This document shows positions 1,003 through 5,826 of a stretch of DNA of 6,775 nt, one piece after another. A model generated the notes under the pieces. The model saw nothing but the letters and a program-made list of their open reading frames with translations. It was not told the DNA's origin and ran no database searches. Source of the DNA: a virus (lineage: Duplodnaviria > Heunggongvirae > Uroviricota > Caudoviricetes); IMG/VR virus record IMGVR_UViG_2671180460_000004, positions 1-6,775 of that record. One strand, 5' to 3'. Each line of letters starts with the position of its first letter. Position 1 is the first letter of the stretch. Position numbers and translations under genes: made by a program.

Positions 1003-1137
1003 ATGTCAGATAGCATTATAAAACTGGCGCGAATTCTCTGTGTGGTTGTTGGCCTTTCATTTTCAGCAATGTTGGTTGCCATTTTCATTTCCACCGCCTG
1101 GCGAGTATTGAGCTTATCCGGATTGATTGGTGGATAG
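1003..1137 (+). CDS. Hypothetical small transmembrane protein (44 aa)
   Basis: ATG 1003 with AGGGG 6 nt upstream; stop TAG 1135-1137. Product MSDSIIKLARILCVVVGLSFSAMLVAIFISTAWRVLSLSGLIGG has one clear hydrophobic helix. The track ORF 910..1137 starts further upstream without a good RBS. Confidence 0.4.
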   Translation: MSDSIIKLARILCVVVGLSFSAMLVAIFISTAWRVLSLSGLIGG

Positions 1138-1141
1138 CGAG

Positions 1142-1324
1142 ATGAAGCGAAAACACTGGACACACAGAATGCCGCGAACGGCAGCGAAATGGGCACTGGT
1201 AGCGATACTGGTGCCTTTTTTATTGGTGGGATGCGTCAGCCTGGATAAGGCGCGTCAGTTTTTCGATACAGCTTCTCAGGTCTGTGAAATTGTCGACGGT
1301 GTCCGGCAGTGCATGCAGAACTGA
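1142..1324 (+). CDS. Predicted small lipoprotein (60 aa precursor, about 30 aa mature, Cys-containing)
   Basis: ATG 1142 with GGTGGA 7 nt upstream; it overlaps the preceding ORF in a different frame. N-terminus MKRKHWTHRMPRTAAKWALVAILVPFLLVGC has a basic n-region, a hydrophobic core and a lipobox-like LVGC. The mature part CVSLDKARQFFDTASQVCEIVDGVRQCMQN has V at +2 and two further cysteines. Confidence 0.45.
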   Translation: MKRKHWTHRMPRTAAKWALVAILVPFLLVGCVSLDKARQFFDTASQVCEIVDGVRQCMQN

Positions 1325-1486
1325 TCGCCTGTAAGAGCAGAATATTTTGCTGAAAAATGAAGGATGCGCCAGCGTCCGGAAAGCATGAAATTCTGCTGCG
1401 TGTACCAATTTTATCTTATTCATTCTAAATCTTGCCGAATCAAGCAACTGCCCGGGCGGCAAGGGGTATTTTTATCCGGAGGGGAT

Positions 1487-1711
1487 ATGAAGAGATTACT
1501 GGTAACCGTAAAGCCCTTTAACGGAACGATTCCATTCAGGGTTTTGCAGCGTGGACGTGTTCTGGTTAAGGATATCTTCAGTGGTAAATGCACGGAATGT
1601 TATTCCCGGACATATGAAGTGGATGCCACGGATGAAGAAATTTCTGTTGAATGTGATCTGAACGCGAATATGGCGGGGATTGTAACAGCCACGTTGTTGC
1701 CGGTTTCATGA
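1487..1711 (+). CDS. Hypothetical protein (74 aa) with a CxxC motif
   Basis: ATG 1487 with GGAGG 4 nt upstream; stop TGA 1709-1711. Product MKRLLVTVKPFNGTIPFRVLQRGRVLVKDIFSGKCTECYSRTYEVDATDEEISVECDLNANMAGIVTATLLPVS. The antisense ORF 1578..1925 has implausible composition. Confidence 0.45.
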   Translation: MKRLLVTVKPFNGTIPFRVLQRGRVLVKDIFSGKCTECYSRTYEVDATDEEISVECDLNANMAGIVTATLLPVS

Positions 1712-1751
1712 ATGACATAGAATGTCTCTGGGTACCCAAAAGGAGAACACT

Positions 1752-1967
1752 ATGTTTGTAGAAAATAACCTGAAGGCTGATCCTGATAATCAGGGATGGG
1801 TTCTGGGTTGGGCTGTAGTACGTGACAAACCGTGGCATCTGGTCGGTATTTATGCGACGGAGGATGGCGCAAAGTCTAAACGCTCTGAATTGAATGGGGA
1901 GTATGAAGTTCGTTATGGTTCCCATCGTTTAGGTAGTGATGATTTTATGTCTGTCGGACTTAGCTAA
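1752..1967 (+). CDS. Hypothetical protein (71 aa)
   Basis: Strong RBS AGGAG at 1741-1745, 6 nt before ATG 1752; stop TAA 1965-1967; followed by the terminator at 1989-2016. Product MFVENNLKADPDNQGWVLGWAVVRDKPWHLVGIYATEDGAKSKRSELNGEYEVRYGSHRLGSDDFMSVGLS, Trp/Gly-rich and mildly acidic. Confidence 0.6.
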   Translation: MFVENNLKADPDNQGWVLGWAVVRDKPWHLVGIYATEDGAKSKRSELNGEYEVRYGSHRLGSDDFMSVGLS

Positions 1968-1988
1968 CTGGCTGTGATGCCTGTTTGT

Positions 1989-2016
1989 AGCCCCGCAAAT
2001 GCGGGGCTTTTTATAT
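1989..2016 (+). terminator. Rho-independent terminator
   Basis: Near-perfect hairpin AGCCCCGCA-aa-TGCGGGGCT (1989-2009) followed by TTTTTAT. Confidence 0.65.
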
Positions 2017-2028
2017 TTGGAGACGATA

Positions 2029-2325
2029 ATGAAAAAAACAGAAAATAAACCGGTTGCAATTGGTGCCGCTGTTGTTCCGTTTAAGTTTGAGTTGTCTCAA
2101 CTGGTGGAGATGCGCATCAGTGATGAATGGGGTGAGGTTAAAGCCCGCGCGCAGTATGCGGATGGCGAAAATCAGTACTTACTCTACTACAAGGCTGCTG
2201 ATGGTCGCGCCACAACGGAGTGGTTTGGTGAGTCAATGCTGGAAGCAACAGAAGATGATCGCCATCCGGGCTGTCCGGTATTTGCCGGTATGAAATTACC
2301 GGAAGGCGCGGTCGTTACTGAGTAA
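2029..2325 (+). CDS. Hypothetical acidic protein (98 aa)
   Basis: GGAG at 2019-2022, 6 nt before ATG 2029; stop TAA 2323-2325. Product MKKTENKPVAIGAAVVPFKFELSQLVEMRISDEWGEVKARAQYADGENQYLLYYKAADGRATTEWFGESMLEATEDDRHPGCPVFAGMKLPEGAVVTE has about 17 acidic and 11 basic residues. The overlapping out-of-frame track ORF 2054..2293 is rejected. Confidence 0.6.
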   Translation: MKKTENKPVAIGAAVVPFKFELSQLVEMRISDEWGEVKARAQYADGENQYLLYYKAADGRATTEWFGESMLEATEDDRHPGCPVFAGMKLPEGAVVTE

Positions 2326-2539
2326 CAGCAGGCATTATCGCAGCCCTTCACTGAGGGGCCGCGATAATGTGAGGAATAAAAAACCGGTCACAGGGAGCAG
2401 CTACACAGAACCGGCTGGCGAAGACTGCCAATATCACCCGGGCATCGGTACAACATACTTATGACAATAGACGGTATTGATGTAAATGCAATATCATATC
2501 AGAAAATAATAATTTATTGTATGAAAAGAATATTGAGAT

Positions 2540-2570
2540 AAAAATGCCAACCCATTATCTATGGGCTGGC
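2540..2570 (-). terminator. Rho-independent terminator for the minus-strand gene 2597..2797
   Basis: On the minus strand: hairpin GCCAGCCCAU-agaua-AUGGGUUGGC (2570-2546; 10-bp stem with one G-U pair) followed by AUUUUUAU. It sits 26 nt beyond the gene's stop. Confidence 0.5.
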
Positions 2571-2596
2571 ATAATGATTAGTCCGAAAGTGAATAT

Positions 2597-2797
2597 TTAA
2601 AGAAACTGATTAAATTCCTTAACTGAATCATGCAGTTCGTATTCTTTCAGGTTTTTGATAATCGCTTCCCTTCGCTCTGGTGGTAGTTGAGCCATGAGGA
2701 AACCGACGACACATTTTAGCTGCCCAATTTCTTTATTGAGATCATGAATGTTTTTGGCATTACATTCCATCTGTAATCTGAAATTCTTCTTAATCAT
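2597..2797 (-). CDS. Hypothetical small protein (66 aa) encoded antisense to the late operon, in an AT-rich island
   Basis: Minus-strand ORF with ATG at 2797-2795, preceded on the minus strand by AAGGGA about 7 nt upstream. Product MIKKNFRLQMECNAKNIHDLNKEIGQLKCVVGFLMAQLPPERREAIIKNLKEYELHDSVKEFNQFL is Lys/Glu-rich and probably helical. Its own terminator lies downstream at 2540-2570. No homology recognised. Confidence 0.5.
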   Translation of the reverse strand: MIKKNFRLQMECNAKNIHDLNKEIGQLKCVVGFLMAQLPPERREAIIKNLKEYELHDSVKEFNQFL

Positions 2798-2880
2798 ATT
2801 TATTCCCTTATGATGATGTGGAAGAGGTATTTATCCTGGAGAGTGGCAGTAATGGCCACTGACCGAGCAGGTATTTTAAC

Positions 2881-2946
2881 CAGATTCATGATTAATGAAA
2901 ATATTGATAATTGATCAGATTCATATGAAATTAATAATGATAATTG
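2881..2946. repeat. Imperfect tandem direct repeat (two units of about 33-35 bp) in AT-rich DNA upstream of cosN
   Basis: Unit 1 (2881-2915) is CAGATTCATgattaatgaaaataTTGATAATTGat and unit 2 (2916-2946) is CAGATTCATatgaaattaataaTGATAATTGct. Both begin with CAGATTCAT and end with TGATAATTG. Confidence 0.4.
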
Positions 2947-2949
2947 CTC

Positions 2950-3160
2950 TCATTTGTGCGGGTCCTTCCGGTGGGGTGGCCTGCCACGGGGCGGCAGCGG
3001 CGCGGATTTTCGCTATTTATGAAAATTTTTCGGGAAAAAGCGTGTCGGTACTTCTCGTGTATAACTCATTGTTTTTTCATCAATCACATCCGTAAAAGGT
3101 CCGACATGAAAGTGCCCGAAAAAGACGTTTTTGAGCACTTCCATGTCGGACCCTGCATTT
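2950..3160 (+). other. cos: cos site: cosQ-like segment, cosN (predicted 12-nt cohesive end at 2989-3000) and cosB with three R-like elements
   Basis: 2960-3035 (GGGTCCTTCCGGTGG...CCACG GGGCGGCAGCGG CGCGGATTTTCGCTATTTATGAAAATTTTTCGG) aligns with the lambda cos junction as recalled from memory (GGGTCCTTTCCGGTG...TTACG | GGGCGGCGACCT CGCGGGTTTTCGCTATTTATGAAAATTTTCCGG). cosB candidates: an R3-like GTGTCGGTAC at 3042-3051 and a perfect 11-bp inverted repeat GGTCCGACATG (3098-3108) / CATGTCGGACC (3142-3152), laid out like lambda R3/R2/R1. The Nu1-like gene starts immediately downstream. Confidence 0.75.
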
Positions 3161-3176
3161 GATATGGAAATGTTTT

Positions 3177-3725
3177 ATGAAGGTTAATAAAAAGAAGCTC
3201 GCGGAAATTTTCAACGTGGATCCACGAACGATTGAACGCTGGCAGTCTCAGGGGCTCTCTTGTGTCTCTGGTGGTAGTAAGGGGGTTGAATCTGTATTTG
3301 ATACCGCCATGGCAATTCAGTGGTATGCGCAACGCGAAGCCGATATTGAAAACGAAAAACTCCGCAAAGAGACCGAGGATTTGCGTGCGGCTGCGGAATC
3401 AGATTTACAACCCGGCACCATTGACTATGAACGCTACCGACTCACAAAAGCACAGGCTGATGCACAGGAACTGAAAAATGCCCGCGAAGAAGGGCTGGTA
3501 CTGGAAACGGAATTGTTTACCTTCATTCTGCAACGTGTGGCACAGGAGATTTCGGGGATACTTGTACGTGTGTCGCTGACATTACAGCGTAAATATCCGG
3601 ATATTTCACCGTCACACCTTGATGTGGTGAAAACTGAAATCGCAAAAGCCTCCAACGTTGCAGCTAAAGCTGGTGAGAACGTAGGCGGGTGGATTGATGA
3701 TTTCAGACGCACAGAAGGCAGCTAA
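3177..3725 (+). CDS. nu1: Terminase small subunit (lambda Nu1 homolog, 182 aa)
   Basis: [41 protein letters not shown]... closely parallels lambda Nu1 MEVNKKQLADIFGASIRTIQNWQEQGMPVLRGGGKGNEVLY..., and later stretches match too ([32 protein letters not shown]). ATG 3177 is chosen by this alignment; the track ORF starts at TTG 3159. Stop TAA 3723-3725. Confidence 0.9.
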
Positions 3726-5613
3726 TGCAGCCGGTGCGATAGCAACAGGGCTTGTATCTCTCAATATTCCGGTACCACTGACGACAGTTCAGTGGGCTGA
3801 TCAGCATTATTATCTGCCAAAAGAGTCTTCATATACTCCCGGGCAATGGGAAACACTGCCGTTTCAGGTTGCCATCATGAACAGCATGGGGAATGACCGG
3901 ATCCGCACCGTTAATCTGATTAAATCGGCGCGTGTTGGTTACACCAAAATGCTGTTGGGGGTGGAGGCTTATTTTATTGAACACAAATCCCGTAACAGCC
4001 TGCTTTTTCAGCCGACAGATTCTGCGGCAGAAGATTTTATGAAATCCCATGTCGAACCAACGATAAGAGACGTTCCTGTATTACTGGAGCTGGCTCCGTG
4101 GTTTGGCAGAAAACATCGGGACAACACGCTTACCCTGAAACGTTTCTCCTCCGGTGTGGGATTCTGGTGTCTGGGCGGAGCTGCTGCCAAAAACTACCGT
4201 GAAAAATCTGTGGATGTGGTCTGCTATGACGAACTCTCCTCGTTTGAACCGGATGTGGAAAAAGAAGGTTCACCAACCCTGCTTGGCGATAAGCGTATCG
4301 AAGGTTCGGTATGGCCTAAATCCATACGCGGCTCAACGCCCAAAATTAAAGGTTTTTGCCAGATTGAAAAAGCCGCGAACGAATCTGCACATTTTATGCG
4401 GTTTTATGTGCCATGCCCTCATTGTGGTGAAGCCCAGTATCTGAAGTTTGGCGATGATGCGACAACCTTTGGCCTGAAATGGGAGAAGGGCAAGCCGGAG
4501 ACGGTGTATTACCTGTGTGAACATAATGGCTGCGTGATCCGTCAGTCGGAACTTGACCAGACCGACGGGCGGTGGATTTGTGACAATACCGGGATGTGGA
4601 CGCGTGACGGTCTGACATTTTACAGCGCCGGTGATGAGGAAATCCCGCCACCGCGCTCAATCTCGTACCACATCTGGACGGCATACAGCCCGTTCACCAC
4701 CTGGGTACAGATTGTTTATGACTGGCTTGATGCACTGAAGGATCCGAATGGCGTCAAGACGTTCATTAACACCACGCTGGGGGAGCCTTATGAAGAGGCT
4801 GTGGCAGAAAAACTGAGCTTTGAGTTGTTGCTGGAAAAAGTCTGCCACTATGATGCGCAGGTTCCCCTGCGGGTGGTTTACCTGACCGCAGGGATCGACT
4901 CTCAGAAAAACCGTTATGAGATTTATGTCTGGGGCTGGGCTCCTGGCGAAGAAGCTTTTCTGATTGACAAGCAGATCATCATGGGGAGACCGGAAGATGA
5001 GGACACCCTTAAACGCGTTGATGCCGTGATCCGGAAAAAATACCGTCATGCAGATGGCACTGAAATTTCCATTTCCCGCGTCTGCTGGGATACCGGTGGT
5101 ATTGACCAGGACATTGTGTATCAGCGATCCAGAAAACACGGTACTTTTTTTGTGCTCCCCATCAAAGGGGCGTCGGTGTACGGCAAGCCGGTAATCACCA
5201 TGCCAAAAAAGCGAAACCAGCGTGGGGTGTTTTTGTGTGAGGTGGGTTCCGATACCGTCAAGGAAATGCTGTATGCGCGTTTTGCACTGCCGGTGGTATC
5301 TGCCAGTGAAGTCGCACCGTATACCTTCCGTTTTCCGGATAACCCGGACATTTTTTCTGATGTTGAAGCTAAACAACTCGTGGCAGAAGAGCTGGTTGAA
5401 AAAGTTGTGAACGGGCGGGTGAAACTCCAGTGGGATGCCAGAAAACGGCGTAATGAAGCCCTGGACTGTCTGGTGTATGCCTATGCAGCGCTGCGCATTT
5501 CCGTTCAGCGGTGGCAACTGGATCTGGATGCACTGGCCCGCGCCAGAAGAGATGAACAGGACGACGATGAAATGACTATTGAAGAAATCGCGGCTGCTCT
5601 GAGTGGAGGATAA
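3697..5613 (+). CDS. A: Terminase large subunit (lambda gpA homolog, 638 aa)
   Basis: Similar to lambda gpA along its whole length, e.g. [25 protein letters not shown], the atypical Walker A-like KSARVGYT at residues 76-83 (nt 3922-3945) and the C-terminal [23 protein letters not shown] 3697 follows the TTG at 3694 used by the track. The gene overlaps the Nu1 3' end by 29 nt in another frame, as lambda Nu1/A do. Stop TAA 5611-5613. Confidence 0.95.
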
Positions 5614-5616
5614 GTG

Positions 5617-5826
5617 ATGATTTATACGCATGAAATGCTATGCGATGCCCGCCGGGCGTTACATGAACTGATGATCGGACGTGCTGTGGTTTCCGTCAGC
5701 AAGGACGGGCGTCAGGTTCAGTATTCGCGGGCGACAATTGGTGAACTGCGTCAGTATATTGAAGAGCTGGAAAGTGCGCTGGGTGTATCCGGACGGCGTC
5801 GTGGCCCGGCAGGAGTGTGGCTGTGA
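5617..5826 (+). CDS. W: Head-tail joining / head completion protein (lambda gpW homolog, 69 aa)
   Basis: GGAGGA at 5605-5610, 6 nt before ATG 5617. Product MIYTHEMLCDARRALHELMIGRAVVSVSKDGRQVQYSRATIGELRQYIEELESALGVSGRRRGPAGVWL aligns with lambda gpW (...[26 protein letters not shown]...YIAELE...RRRGPAGFYV). Stop TGA 5824-5826. Confidence 0.85.
   Translation: MIYTHEMLCDARRALHELMIGRAVVSVSKDGRQVQYSRATIGELRQYIEELESALGVSGRRRGPAGVWL

What the first reader, a model, noticed from the sequence alone, without database searches (positions are those of the whole stretch)
2950..3160. cos site with a predicted cohesive end and cosB repeats that differ from lambda
Seen in sequence: the cosN-proximal segment aligns almost base for base with lambda, but the inferred 12-nt overhang is GGGCGGCAGCGG (2989-3000) where lambda has GGGCGGCGACCT. 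The putative terminase-binding elements are built on a GTCGGACC core (an 11-bp perfect inverted repeat at 3098-3108 / 3142-3152 plus a related copy at 3042-3051) where lambda has a CGTTTCC core, although the R3/R2/R1-like layout is kept. The Nu1 DNA-binding N-terminus is correspondingly diverged from lambda. Inference: packaging specificity is probably distinct from lambda. The lambda sequences are from memory, and the exact nick positions are inferred by alignment only.
Basis: partly seen in the sequence, partly recalled or inferred. Interest (0 to 1): 0.5.

Follow-up and report, generated by a model that had tools for sequence, protein, structure and literature searches.

The report
Phage-21-type cos site, variant cohesive end
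This is the DNA-packaging (cos) site of a lambda-like E. coli prophage whose terminase-binding repeats are the long-known phage 21 type and whose 12-base sticky end is a natural variant also found in Salmonella phage Fels-1, so it is real but ordinary.

Summary
cosQ is GGGTCCT at 2960-2966. The predicted overhang is GGGCGGCAGCGG at 2989-3000. Three GTCGG(A/T)(C/A)C boxes lie in an R3-I1-R2(inverted)-R1 layout just upstream of intact Nu1-family terS and gpA-family terL genes.

The repeats that "differ from lambda" are the R boxes of phage 21. R3 matches phage 21 at 15 of 16 bases, with the same spacing and the same critical bp 56 and 59. TerS is 93% identical to phage 21 gp1 and 52% identical to lambda Nu1, and it has the same recognition helix as gp1 (E20, S24). 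Packaging specificity is therefore very probably the phage 21 specificity, characterised by the Feiss laboratory.

The overhang differs from lambda and phage 21 at bp 8, 9, 11 and 12. The literature describes this half of cosN as naturally variable and tolerant of change. The same 12-mer with the same flanks occurs in Salmonella phage Fels-1 and in 68 IMG/VR contigs with at least four different sequences to its right. Near-identical alleles occur in Gifsy-1, mEp460 and phi458. One TerL cluster is linked to three different alleles, so TerL need not co-vary with the overhang.

Verdict: a real cos site and a mosaic member of a known kind. Interest is low. The virion ends have not been tested.

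The parts
2960..2966 (+). cosQ (GGGTCCT), the packaging-termination element. It lies 22 bp from the predicted top-strand nick, against 23 bp in lambda and phage 21.
   Evidence: The heptamer is identical to lambda 48473-48479. It was present in 91 of 92 unique lambda/21-like cos sequences sampled. The 22-bp spacing is shared with the viable phages mEp460 and phi458.
2987..3002 (+). cosN: CG | GGGCGGCAGCGG | CG. The predicted 12-nt 5' overhang is 2989-3000. The predicted nicks are after 2988 on the top strand and after 3000 on the bottom strand.
   Evidence: Ungapped alignment to lambda and phage 21, whose records start at the first overhang base. The left half GGGCGG and both flanking CG dinucleotides are conserved. 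Differences are at bp 8, 9, 11 and 12. The same 12-mer and flanks occur in Fels-1 and in 68 IMG/VR contigs. The nick positions are inferred, not measured.
3003..3037 (+). I2-type spacer between cosN and cosB (GGATTTTCGCTATTTATGAAAATTTTTCGGGAAAA).
   Evidence: Nearly identical in lambda, phage 21 and the window. M81255.1 annotates an I2 IHF site in this segment. PMC4669245 lists I2 as needed for efficient termination.
3038..3053 (+). R3, the critical TerS-binding box (AAGCGTGTCGGTACTT, bp 50-65).
   Evidence: 15 of 16 bases identical to phage 21 R3 as annotated in OL657228.1. Same distance from cosN. bp 56 is G and bp 59 is G as in phage 21, against T and C in lambda. The core is invariant in 26 unique 21-type cos sequences.
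3062..3074 (-). I1, an IHF-binding-site candidate (AAACAATGAGTTA on the minus strand).
   Evidence: One mismatch to WATCAANNNNTTR. It sits exactly at bp 74-86, where OL657228.1 annotates I1 of phage 21. The consensus match alone is not significant: 9 matches in the window against 7.2 expected. The evidence is positional homology.
3096..3111 (-). R2, a TerS box in inverted orientation (AAGGTCCGACATGAAA on the plus strand).
   Evidence: 16 of 16 bases identical to phage 21 R2, shifted by +1 bp. Invariant core.
3139..3155 (+). R1, a TerS box (TTCCATGTCGGACCCTG).
   Evidence: Homologous to phage 21 R1, TTTCATGTCGGGCCTTG. CATGTCGG is invariant. It forms the palindrome with R2.
3177..3725 (+). terS (Nu1 / gp1 family), 182 aa.
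   Evidence: Pfam Phage_Nu1, E = 3e-82. 93% identical to phage 21 gp1 and 52% to lambda Nu1. Residues 16-26 ([11 protein letters not shown]) are identical to phage 21.
3694..5613 (+). terL (gpA family), 639 aa, full length.
   Evidence: Pfam GpA_ATPase and GpA_nuclease. 64% identical to lambda gpA over 638 aa. 81% identical to phage 21 gp2: ATPase 93%, nuclease 75%, C-terminal tail 45%.
5614..5826 (+). gpW-family head-completion gene. The start of the portal gene follows (about 5823 or 5871 to the window end).
   Evidence: Pfam gpW, E = 3.6e-25. The open portal-like reading frame runs to 6773. The gene order matches the complete lambda-like prophage of E. coli R1.

Best explanation
This is the functional cos site of a lambda-like prophage of cattle-associated E. 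coli, and it works as phage 21 cos does.

Proposed mechanism. TerS dimers bind R3 and the inverted R2, with an IHF-induced bend at I1, and also bind R1. This anchors TerL so that its gpA-type endonuclease nicks cosN 12 bp apart, giving 5' overhangs of sequence GGGCGGCAGCGG. cosQ, cosN and I2 at the next cos site terminate packaging.

Specificity. It is set by cosB and the TerS recognition helix, and is the phage 21 specificity rather than a new one. The overhang is a natural allele in the tolerant right half of cosN. It affects which ends can anneal, not which DNA terminase selects.

Origin. The site looks mosaic. The cosQ-to-cosN part resembles the Fels-1, mEp460 and phi458 lineage, and the I2, cosB and terS part resembles phage 21.

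Shown here: sequence homology, positions, conservation and linkage. Inferred: binding, nick positions and function.
For: - **Closest records.** Phage 21 is the closest phage record across cos, terS and terL.
- **Site mapping.** The annotated phage 21 R3, I1, R2 and R1 map onto the window with identical cosN-to-R3 spacing.
- **Specificity determinants.** They match phage 21: R3 bp 56 and 59 are G and G, and TerS has E20 and S24 with an identical recognition helix (criteria from PMC4669245).
- **Footprint.** In 26 unique 21-type cos sequences the R boxes and I1 are invariant while the spacers vary.
- **Intact genes.** terS, terL and gpW are intact. A closely related cos-terminase stretch (about 98% identical) lies in a complete lambda-like morphogenesis cluster in E. 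coli R1.
- **Conservation of TerL.** TerL is 99.2-100% conserved in 14 IMG/VR contigs that carry this cos.
- **Spread of the allele.** It occurs with conserved flanks in Fels-1 and in 68 IMG/VR contigs with at least four different sequences to its right.
- **Viable relatives.** Isolated or induced phages carry other non-canonical alleles: mEp460 and phi458 are 1-2 bases away and share the same cosQ-to-cosN left part, and PhiR46_1 has GGGCGGAAGGCG.
- **No need for TerL to co-vary.** One TerL cluster at 97% identity or more is linked to three alleles.
- **Literature.** bp 7-12 vary naturally and tolerate change, while bp 1-6, the flanking CG dinucleotides and cosQ are conserved. That is exactly the pattern seen here (PMC4669245).
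Against: - No virion DNA ends have been determined for this lineage. No record in the phage collection carries this exact cosN joined to a 21-type cosB.
- The best-matching complete prophage (E. coli R1) has an IS66 insertion in its early region, so at least some copies may be defective.
- TerS differs from gp1 at 8 of 68 DNA-binding-domain residues. Four of these (positions 28, 30, 32 and 37) lie in or next to the stretch that corresponds to lambda's wing, residues 31-39. R3 differs at bp 52. A subtle shift of specificity is therefore not excluded.
- The cosQ-to-nick spacing is 22 bp rather than 23 bp.
Confidence: 0.85

Rival explanations
1. The site defines a packaging specificity different from both lambda and phage 21. 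On this view the TerS wing substitutions and the small differences in the R-box flanks retune recognition, so phage 21 terminase would not package this DNA efficiently, and the reverse.
For: 8 of 68 residues of the TerS DNA-binding domain differ from gp1. Positions 28, 30, 32 and 37 lie in or near the stretch that corresponds to lambda's wing, residues 31-39. R3 bp 52 is G where phage 21 has T. R1 and the spacers differ, and the R3-to-R2 distance is 1 bp longer. Murialdo and Feiss suggest that wing variation may change specificity in the related Rpp proteins (PMC9026076 section heading).
Against: The recognition helix is identical to phage 21. The experimentally defined discriminating contacts are the phage 21 versions: TerS residues 20 and 24, and R3 bp 56 and 59. 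The R-box cores are invariant across all three 21-type sub-lineages. The wing varies in the same way in the ETEC sub-lineage, whose cosB also occurs in an isolated phage, IdasGreatGrand.
Confidence: 0.07
2. The site is a decaying, non-functional cos in a defective prophage. On this view the four changes in the overhang are drift, not a working allele.
For: Many E. coli lambda-like prophages are defective. The E24377A relative is a remnant in which terS is followed by a lom pseudogene. The E. coli R1 prophage carries an IS66 insertion. No isolated phage with this exact cos is in the phage collection.
Against: The 20-mer ACGGGGCGGCAGCGGCGCGG is exactly conserved in 68 viral contigs with at least four different sequences to its right, and in Fels-1. 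Drift would not reproduce one haplotype. The changes spare every position reported to be under selection: bp 1-6, the flanking CG dinucleotides and cosQ. terS and terL are intact, and TerL is 99-100% conserved across hosts. Downstream virion genes are complete in E. coli R1.
Confidence: 0.06
3. The R2/R1 palindrome (3098-3152) acts mainly as an RNA or DNA hairpin, for example a transcription terminator or attenuator ahead of terS, rather than as protein-binding boxes.
For: It is a strong hairpin: -19.8 kcal/mol, z = -8.5. The simple scan flags a terminator-like site at 3139-3169.
Against: No T-run follows the main palindrome. The flagged site has only 3 G-C pairs and a weak tail. There is no Rfam match. 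Conservation follows the box sequences in all three copies, including the unpaired R3, not pairing. The same elements are annotated TerS-binding sites in phage 21.
Confidence: 0.02

Closest known systems
Phage 21 cos (cosB21 with gp1/gp2 terminase; records OL657228.1 and M81255.1)
   Same: The layout is R3-I1-R2(inverted)-R1. R3 matches at 15 of 16 bases at the same bp 50-65, and R2 matches at 16 of 16. I1 is at the same bp 74-86. The I2 spacer is the same. TerS is 93% identical with an identical recognition helix. The TerL N-terminus and ATPase domain are 90-93% identical.
   Different: The cohesive-end sequence differs at bp 8, 9, 11 and 12. The 20 bp between cosQ and cosN are largely different and 1 bp shorter. 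The R3-to-R2 distance is 1 bp longer. The TerL nuclease domain is only 75% identical and the C-terminal tail only 45%.
Phage lambda cos (cosQ-cosN-cosB with Nu1/gpA)
   Same: The architecture is the same, as are cosQ GGGTCCT, the cosN left half and flanking CG dinucleotides, the I2 spacer and the position of I1. The terminase genes belong to the same families.
   Different: The R boxes are CGTTTCC-type in lambda and GTCGG-type here. TerS is 52% identical, with Q20 and E24 in lambda against E20 and S24 here. The overhang right half is CGACCT in lambda and CAGCGG here.
Salmonella prophage Fels-1 (NC_010391.1), and the Gifsy-1, mEp460 and phi458 cosN alleles
   Same: Fels-1 has the identical CCACG|GGGCGGCAGCGG|CGCGG. 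Gifsy-1 has GGGCGGCAGCGT, mEp460 has GGGCGGGAGCGG and phi458 has GGGCGGGAGCGT. mEp460 and phi458 also share the window's cosQ-to-cosN spacer, CCGGTGGGGTGGCCTGCCACG.
   Different: The sequence to the right of cosN is unrelated to the 21-type cosB. TerL in the non-21-type contigs that carry this allele, mostly with Fels-1-type right flanks, is only about 22-25% identical to the window's. Fels-1 has GGTACTCC where cosQ would lie.
Natural cosN variation in lambda-like phages (Feiss et al. 2015, PMC4669245; Vahanian et al. 2017, Virology 509:140, not readable here)
   Same: Variation is confined to bp 7-12. bp 1-6, the flanking CG dinucleotides and cosQ are conserved. N15 and phiD326 differ from lambda at bp 9 and 12, and Gifsy-1 at bp 8, 9 and 11.
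   Different: This allele differs at four positions (8, 9, 11, 12). I found no text that names it. Its pairing with a 21-type cosB is not described in the papers I could read.

Membership tests
Lambda-like cos site (12-nt 5' cohesive ends, Nu1/gpA terminase) | cosN with the conserved left half GGGCGG and 5'-CG-3' dinucleotides flanking both nick positions | tested here: met
   aCG|GGGCGGCAGCGG|CGcgg at 2987-3002. Ungapped alignment to lambda and phage 21. Criterion from PMC4669245.
Lambda-like cos site (12-nt 5' cohesive ends, Nu1/gpA terminase) | 7-bp cosQ (GGGTCCT) about 23 bp upstream of the nick | tested here: met
   GGGTCCT at 2960-2966. The spacing is 22 bp, against 23 bp in 88 of 92 sampled sequences. 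The 22-bp spacing is shared with the viable phages mEp460 and phi458.
Lambda-like cos site (12-nt 5' cohesive ends, Nu1/gpA terminase) | Complex cosB: three R boxes with R2 inverted, and an IHF site between R3 and R2 | tested here: met
   R3 at 3038-3053, I1 at 3062-3074, R2 at 3096-3111 (inverted) and R1 at 3139-3155.
Lambda-like cos site (12-nt 5' cohesive ends, Nu1/gpA terminase) | Adjacent Nu1-family terS and gpA-family terL | tested here: met
   Pfam Phage_Nu1 at 3e-82, GpA_ATPase at 1.5e-54 and GpA_nuclease at 1.2e-68.
Lambda-like cos site (12-nt 5' cohesive ends, Nu1/gpA terminase) | Virion DNA actually carries 12-nt 5' overhangs generated at this site | not testable with these tools
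   This needs end sequencing of packaged DNA. The positions are inferred from alignment to records that begin at the lambda and phage 21 left ends.
Phage 21 packaging specificity (cosB21 / gp1) | 21-type R3 with G at bp 56 and G at bp 59, at the same distance from cosN | tested here: met
   Window bp 50-65 is AAGCGTGTCGGTACTT and phage 21 is AATCGTGTCGGTACTT. bp 56 and 59 are G and G in both, and T and C in lambda. Criterion from PMC4669245.
Phage 21 packaging specificity (cosB21 / gp1) | TerS recognition helix of gp1 type, with residues E20 and S24 | tested here: met
   Residues 16-26 ([11 protein letters not shown]) are identical to gp1. Lambda has Q20 and E24.
Phage 21 packaging specificity (cosB21 / gp1) | Packaged by phage 21 terminase and excluded by lambda terminase, a difference of more than 1000-fold in the literature | not testable with these tools
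   This needs a helper-packaging or cosmid transduction assay (design in PMC4669245).
Phage 21 cos in the strict sense | cosQ and cosN identical to lambda. [quoted passage not shown] | tested here: not met
   cosQ is identical, but cosN differs at bp 8, 9, 11 and 12. This is not a determinant of initiation specificity according to PMC4669245. It lowers the claim 'is phage 21 cos', not the claim 'works like it'.
Fels-1-type cosN allele | Overhang GGGCGGCAGCGG with CCACG on the left and CGCGG on the right | tested here: met
   Identical 22-mer in NC_010391.1. The exact 20-mer occurs in 68 IMG/VR contigs.

The most novel reading that the evidence does not exclude
The discrete right-half cosN haplotypes (CGACCT, CAGCGG, AAGGCG, GAGCGG/T) may act as cohesive-end compatibility groups. 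Chromosomes cut at the cos sites of two different co-resident lambda-like prophages would carry ends with 3 to 6 mismatches, depending on the pair of alleles, and would cyclise poorly. Allele switching would then partly isolate a phage lineage from chimeric packaging with neighbouring prophages or cos-bearing satellites. New combinations such as this 21-type cosB joined to a Fels-1-type cosN would arise by heteroallelic end joining at cos.

The evidence does not exclude this:
- Alleles appear as linked multi-base haplotypes with few single-step intermediates.
- They reassort against cosB and TerL types.
- A 2-base mismatch already costs about fourfold in yield (PMC4669245).
Probability: 0.12. 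Interest if true: 0.5.

Novelty: new member of a known kind. Interest (0 to 1): 0.15.

Why it matters
It matters little beyond annotation.

- **Practical use.** It gives a correct label for this prophage module: phage 21 packaging specificity with predicted GGGCGGCAGCGG ends. That helps in setting genome start coordinates, in predicting which helper phages could mobilise cos-bearing elements, and in judging which prophages in a polylysogen could exchange DNA through cos.
- **Natural cosN variation.** Across natural sequences the right half of cosN reassorts freely against cosB type and TerL type. This agrees with the laboratory result that these positions are not read by terminase.
- **Open point.** Only if the alleles proved to act as end-compatibility groups would this become of wider interest.

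Tried and rejected
1. **Species distribution by genome scan.** I scanned genome contigs for the exact 20-mer. Nearly all of the 39 hits were chance matches in high-GC taxa (Streptomyces, Arthrobacter and others), and only a Klebsiella MAG looked plausible.
2. **Isolated phage with this exact cos.** None is in the phage collection. The best full-length matches are about 80% identical, and short exact matches stop at bp 17 in mEp460-type phages.
3. **Literature search for the overhang string.** The 12-mer, the ETEC 12-mer and their reverse complements returned only unrelated papers.
4. **Vahanian et al. 2017.** This is the dedicated survey of natural cosN variation. It is not held in the library, so I could not check whether this allele is listed.
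5. **TerL co-variation with the overhang.** Rejected as a requirement. One TerL cluster at 97% identity or more carries three alleles, and another carries two. The window-type TerL is always linked to CAGCGG, but simple linkage explains that.
6. **IHF consensus as independent evidence.** Matches are not enriched in the window: 9 against 7.2 expected. Only positional homology to the I1 site of phage 21 counts.
7. **RNA-element or terminator reading of the palindrome.** Rejected.
8. **Per-position diversity at bp 7-12 versus the cosQ-cosN spacer.** I computed it.

Full report
**1. The observation**

- GGGTCCT lies at 2960-2966.
- The candidate overhang GGGCGGCAGCGG lies at 2989-3000, flanked by CG on each side.
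- GTGTCGGTAC lies at 3042-3051.
- GGTCCGACATG at 3098-3108 and CATGTCGGACC at 3142-3152 form a perfect 11-bp inverted repeat.

That repeat is the core of a 25-nt, 88% complementary palindrome. As single-stranded DNA it folds far better than shuffled versions, at -19.8 kcal/mol with z = -8.5. The core motif GTCGGWMC occurs 5 times in the window against 0.59 expected, and none of 200 shuffles reached 5. Three of the five copies lie within 110 bp here.

Lambda reads ...GGGTCCTTTCCGGTGATCCGACAGGTTACG|GGGCGGCGACCT|CGCGGGTTTTCGCTATTTATGAAAATTTTCCGG..., and its R boxes carry CGTTTCC. The window aligns without indels from the nick to R3. The overhang differs at bp 8, 9, 11 and 12.

**2. The context**

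Three intact genes follow the repeats.
- A 182-aa Nu1-family terS at 3177-3725.
- A 639-aa gpA-family terL at 3694-5613, with ATPase and endonuclease domains.
- A gpW gene at 5614-5826, followed by the start of a portal gene.

A GH108 endolysin and several small genes lie upstream. The best whole-window matches are prophages of cattle E. coli strains R1, RM8082, C5 and EC11, at 97.6-99.1% identity over 77-89% of the window. In strain R1 the module sits in a lambda-like prophage that runs from integrase to tail fibres with a full head and tail gene set. That copy carries an IS66 insertion in its early region. No Rfam family matches anywhere in the window.

**3. The cosB repeats and TerS are the phage 21 type**

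The closest phage records across cos, terS and terL are phage 21 and its relatives, at about 82% nucleotide identity. The phage 21 records annotate R3 (bp 50-65), I1 (74-86), R2 (107-122, inverted) and R1 (150-166). These map onto the window as follows.

| Element | Window | Phage 21 | Match |
|---|---|---|---|
| R3 | AAGCGTGTCGGTACTT | AATCGTGTCGGTACTT | 15 of 16, same distance from cosN |
| I1 | TAACTCATTGTTT | TAACTTTTTGTTT | same bp 74-86 |
| R2 | AAGGTCCGACATGAAA | AAGGTCCGACATGAAA | 16 of 16, shifted by +1 bp |
| R1 | TTCCATGTCGGACCCTG | TTTCATGTCGGGCCTTG | homologous |

The I1 candidate has one mismatch to the IHF consensus. That match alone is not significant, so positional homology is the evidence for it.

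Feiss and colleagues report that lambda and phage 21 each package their own DNA more than 1000-fold better than the other's. They attribute this to the TerS recognition helix and the R sites. R3 bp 56 and 59 and TerS residues 20 and 24 are the determinants identified by genetics (PMC4669245). The window has G56 and G59, as phage 21 does, where lambda has T and C. Its TerS has E20 and S24 within a helix ([11 protein letters not shown]) identical to gp1, where lambda has Q20 and E24.

TerS identity, by region:

| Region | vs phage 21 gp1 | vs lambda Nu1 |
|---|---|---|
| Whole protein | 93% | 52% |
| DNA-binding domain (residues 1-68) | 88% | 56% |

An alignment of 26 unique 21-type cos sequences shows three sub-lineages: phage 21, the ETEC and IdasGreatGrand type, and the window type. 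Their spacers differ, but R3, I1, R2 and R1 are invariant. That is the footprint expected of binding sites. The sequences came from E. coli genomes, isolated phages and IMG/VR contigs.

So the inference of a specificity 'distinct from lambda' is right. It is the well-known phage 21 specificity.

**4. The cohesive end**

Phage 21 itself has the lambda overhang GGGCGGCGACCT, so the overhang is the one feature in which the window departs from its closest relative. It is a recurrent natural allele, not a private oddity.
- The identical CCACG|GGGCGGCAGCGG|CGCGG occurs in Salmonella prophage Fels-1.
- Gifsy-1 has GGGCGGCAGCGT, which matches the published statement that it differs from lambda at bp 8, 9 and 11.
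- The isolated phages mEp460 and phi458 have GGGCGGGAGCGG and GGGCGGGAGCGT. They also share the window's whole cosQ-to-cosN spacer.
- A further allele, GGGCGGAAGGCG, occurs with a 21-type cosB in ETEC H10407 and E24377A. It occurs with a lambda-type cosB in YDC107_1 and in PhiR46_1, a phage record whose listed host is strain ECOR13.

In a truncated IMG/VR sample that was unbiased at bp 7-12, the allele counts were as follows.

| Allele | Contigs |
|---|---|
| CGACCT | 108 |
| AAGGCG | 8 |
| CAGCGG | 5 |
| CGACCG | 1 |

An exact scan for ACGGGGCGGCAGCGGCGCGG found 68 viral contigs, with these sequences to the right of cosN.

| Sequence to the right of cosN | Matches |
|---|---|
| Fels-1 type | about 40 |
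| 21 type | about 23 |
| mEp460 / Gifsy-2 type | a few |
| Other | a few |

The literature already states the following. Differences at bp 7-12 'are common' among lambda-like phages. Mutations there have minimal effect. The bottom-strand nick is made by TerL anchored to cosB and is insensitive to sequence. By contrast, bp 1-6, the CG dinucleotides flanking the nicks and cosQ are conserved (PMC4669245). The window fits this pattern exactly. A dedicated survey exists (Vahanian et al. 2017, Virology 509:140), cited in PMC9026076 and PMC12315714. It is not held in the library.

**5. TerL does not have to co-vary with the overhang**

I clustered TerL (C-terminal 560 aa, at least 97% identity) from 86 loci and cross-tabulated the clusters against alleles.
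- One 36-member lambda-type cluster carries CGACCT (32 members), AAGGCG (3) and CGACCG (1).
- A Gifsy-2-type cluster carries both GAGCGT and CAGCGG.
- The window-type cluster (15 members, including the window and a relative) carries only CAGCGG. Its TerL is 99.2-100% identical across 14 IMG/VR contigs. That pattern fits a conserved, mobile and probably functional module, and also simple linkage.

The same overhang is used with TerLs that are only about 22% identical to the window's, in the non-21-type contigs that mostly have Fels-1-type right flanks.

Compared with phage 21 gp2, the window TerL is mosaic.

| TerL region | Identity to phage 21 gp2 |
|---|---|
| N-terminus | 90% |
| ATPase domain | 93% |
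| Nuclease domain | 75% |
| C-terminal portal-binding tail | 45% |

I read this as recombination with a different head module, not as adaptation to cosN, given the cross-tabulation above.

**6. Mosaic origin (inference)**

To the left of bp 17 the window matches the mEp460 and phi458 lineage almost base for base. To the right it matches the lambda and phage 21 I2 spacer and the 21-type cosB. IMG/VR locus L160 joins the CAGCGG cosN to the ETEC-type cosB, and other loci join that cosB to the canonical cosN. So junctions fall inside cos.

Two routes could produce this. One is a crossover in the short conserved cosN and I2 homology. The other is packaging from one prophage's cos to another's, followed by resolution of the mismatched ends, a process shown experimentally for lambda and N15 (PMC4669245). 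I did not test this further.

**7. Mechanism, with what is shown and what is inferred**

- Shown by sequence: all cos subsites are present at the phage 21 positions, the terminase genes are intact, the binding boxes are conserved across relatives, and the allele recurs.
- Inferred from phage 21 and lambda biology: TerS dimers bind R3 and R2 across an IHF bend at I1. TerL is positioned to nick after 2988 on the top strand and after 3000 on the bottom strand. The ends separate, and packaging proceeds rightward through terS to the next cosQ and cosN.
- Not shown: binding, nick positions and virion production.

**8. Rivals**

- A specificity distinct from phage 21 as well (0.07). It rests on substitutions near the TerS wing and small flank differences. 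The identical recognition helix and the identical critical base pairs argue against it.
- A decayed cos (0.06). The exact conservation of the haplotype with several different right-hand contexts and the intact, conserved terminase argue against it.
- A hairpin or terminator role for the palindrome (0.02). There is no T-run, no Rfam hit, and conservation follows the box sequence, including the unpaired R3.

**9. Novelty and score**

[quoted passage not shown] The particular combination is widespread in public E. coli genomes, with 22 complete genomes at 95% identity or more over the cos region. I found no paper that names it.

It is a new member of a known kind, and interest is 0.15. The most novel reading not excluded is that cosN haplotypes act as end-compatibility groups between co-resident lambda-like prophages (probability about 0.12).

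Noticed in passing
L006 (E. coli H10407, NC_017633.1) 743-1288; L005 (E24377A) 743-1297: The ETEC prophage TerS is a natural hybrid. Its N-terminal DNA-binding domain is 21-type and its C-terminal TerL-binding half is lambda-type. It is paired with a 21-type cosB and a third cosN allele, GGGCGGAAGGCG. The E24377A copy is a remnant in which terS is followed directly by a lom pseudogene.
   Followed up: partly
window 3694-5613: TerL is mosaic relative to phage 21 gp2: N-terminus 90%, ATPase 93%, nuclease domain 75% and C-terminal portal-binding tail 45% identical. This suggests a recombination joint inside terL that links a 21-type front end to a different head module.
   Followed up: partly
window 2960-2988: The cosQ-to-nick spacing is 22 bp, against 23 bp in lambda, phage 21 and 88 of 92 sampled cos sequences. 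The shorter spacing travels with the GGTGGGGTGGCCTGCCACG spacer, which is also seen in the ETEC prophages, mEp460 and phi458.
   Followed up: partly
L160 (IMGVR_UViG_2579779116_000006): This contig joins the window-type cosQ, cosN (CAGCGG) and R3 to the ETEC-type cosB spacers, R2 and R1. It is a recombinant with its junction inside cos.
   Followed up: no
window 2544-2901, minus strand: A 66-aa ORF lies on the opposite strand (2597-2797) with no Pfam match. It has promoter-like sites upstream and a strong terminator-like hairpin (2572-2544, 12 pairs plus a T-run) downstream. It looks like an autonomous, reverse-oriented moron immediately upstream of cos.
   Followed up: no
window 1142-2369: Small genes without Pfam domains lie between the lysis cassette and cos. 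They are 92.5% identical to hypothetical genes of Stx phage phiP27. The SerU-LTIIb prophage also matches the window's endolysin and terS regions (two aligned pieces), and the LT-IIb enterotoxin genes are among the features listed under that match, so this slot may be a cargo site. I did not inspect the gene order.
   Followed up: no
window 2900-2954: There is a direct repeat, AATATTGATAATTGATCAGATT / AATAATGATAATTGCTCTCATT, with 33-bp spacing just upstream of cosQ. A related GATGATAAT...TC motif precedes cosQ in lambda and phage 21 as well. Its function is unknown.
   Followed up: no
L004 (E. coli EC11, NZ_CP027255.1) 1-75; L242 (E. coli R1) 9997-12309: Insertion sequences sit in related prophages: an IS3-family transposase gene ends about 470 bp upstream of cosN in EC11, and an IS66/ISEc8 element sits in the early region in R1. 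At least some carriers are probably defective even though cos and the terminase genes are intact.
   Followed up: no
window 1127-1324: A 65-aa ORF has a lipobox-like LLVGC after a hydrophobic stretch and lies downstream of the endolysin. It is a possible o-spanin or lipoprotein. It has no Pfam match.
   Followed up: no
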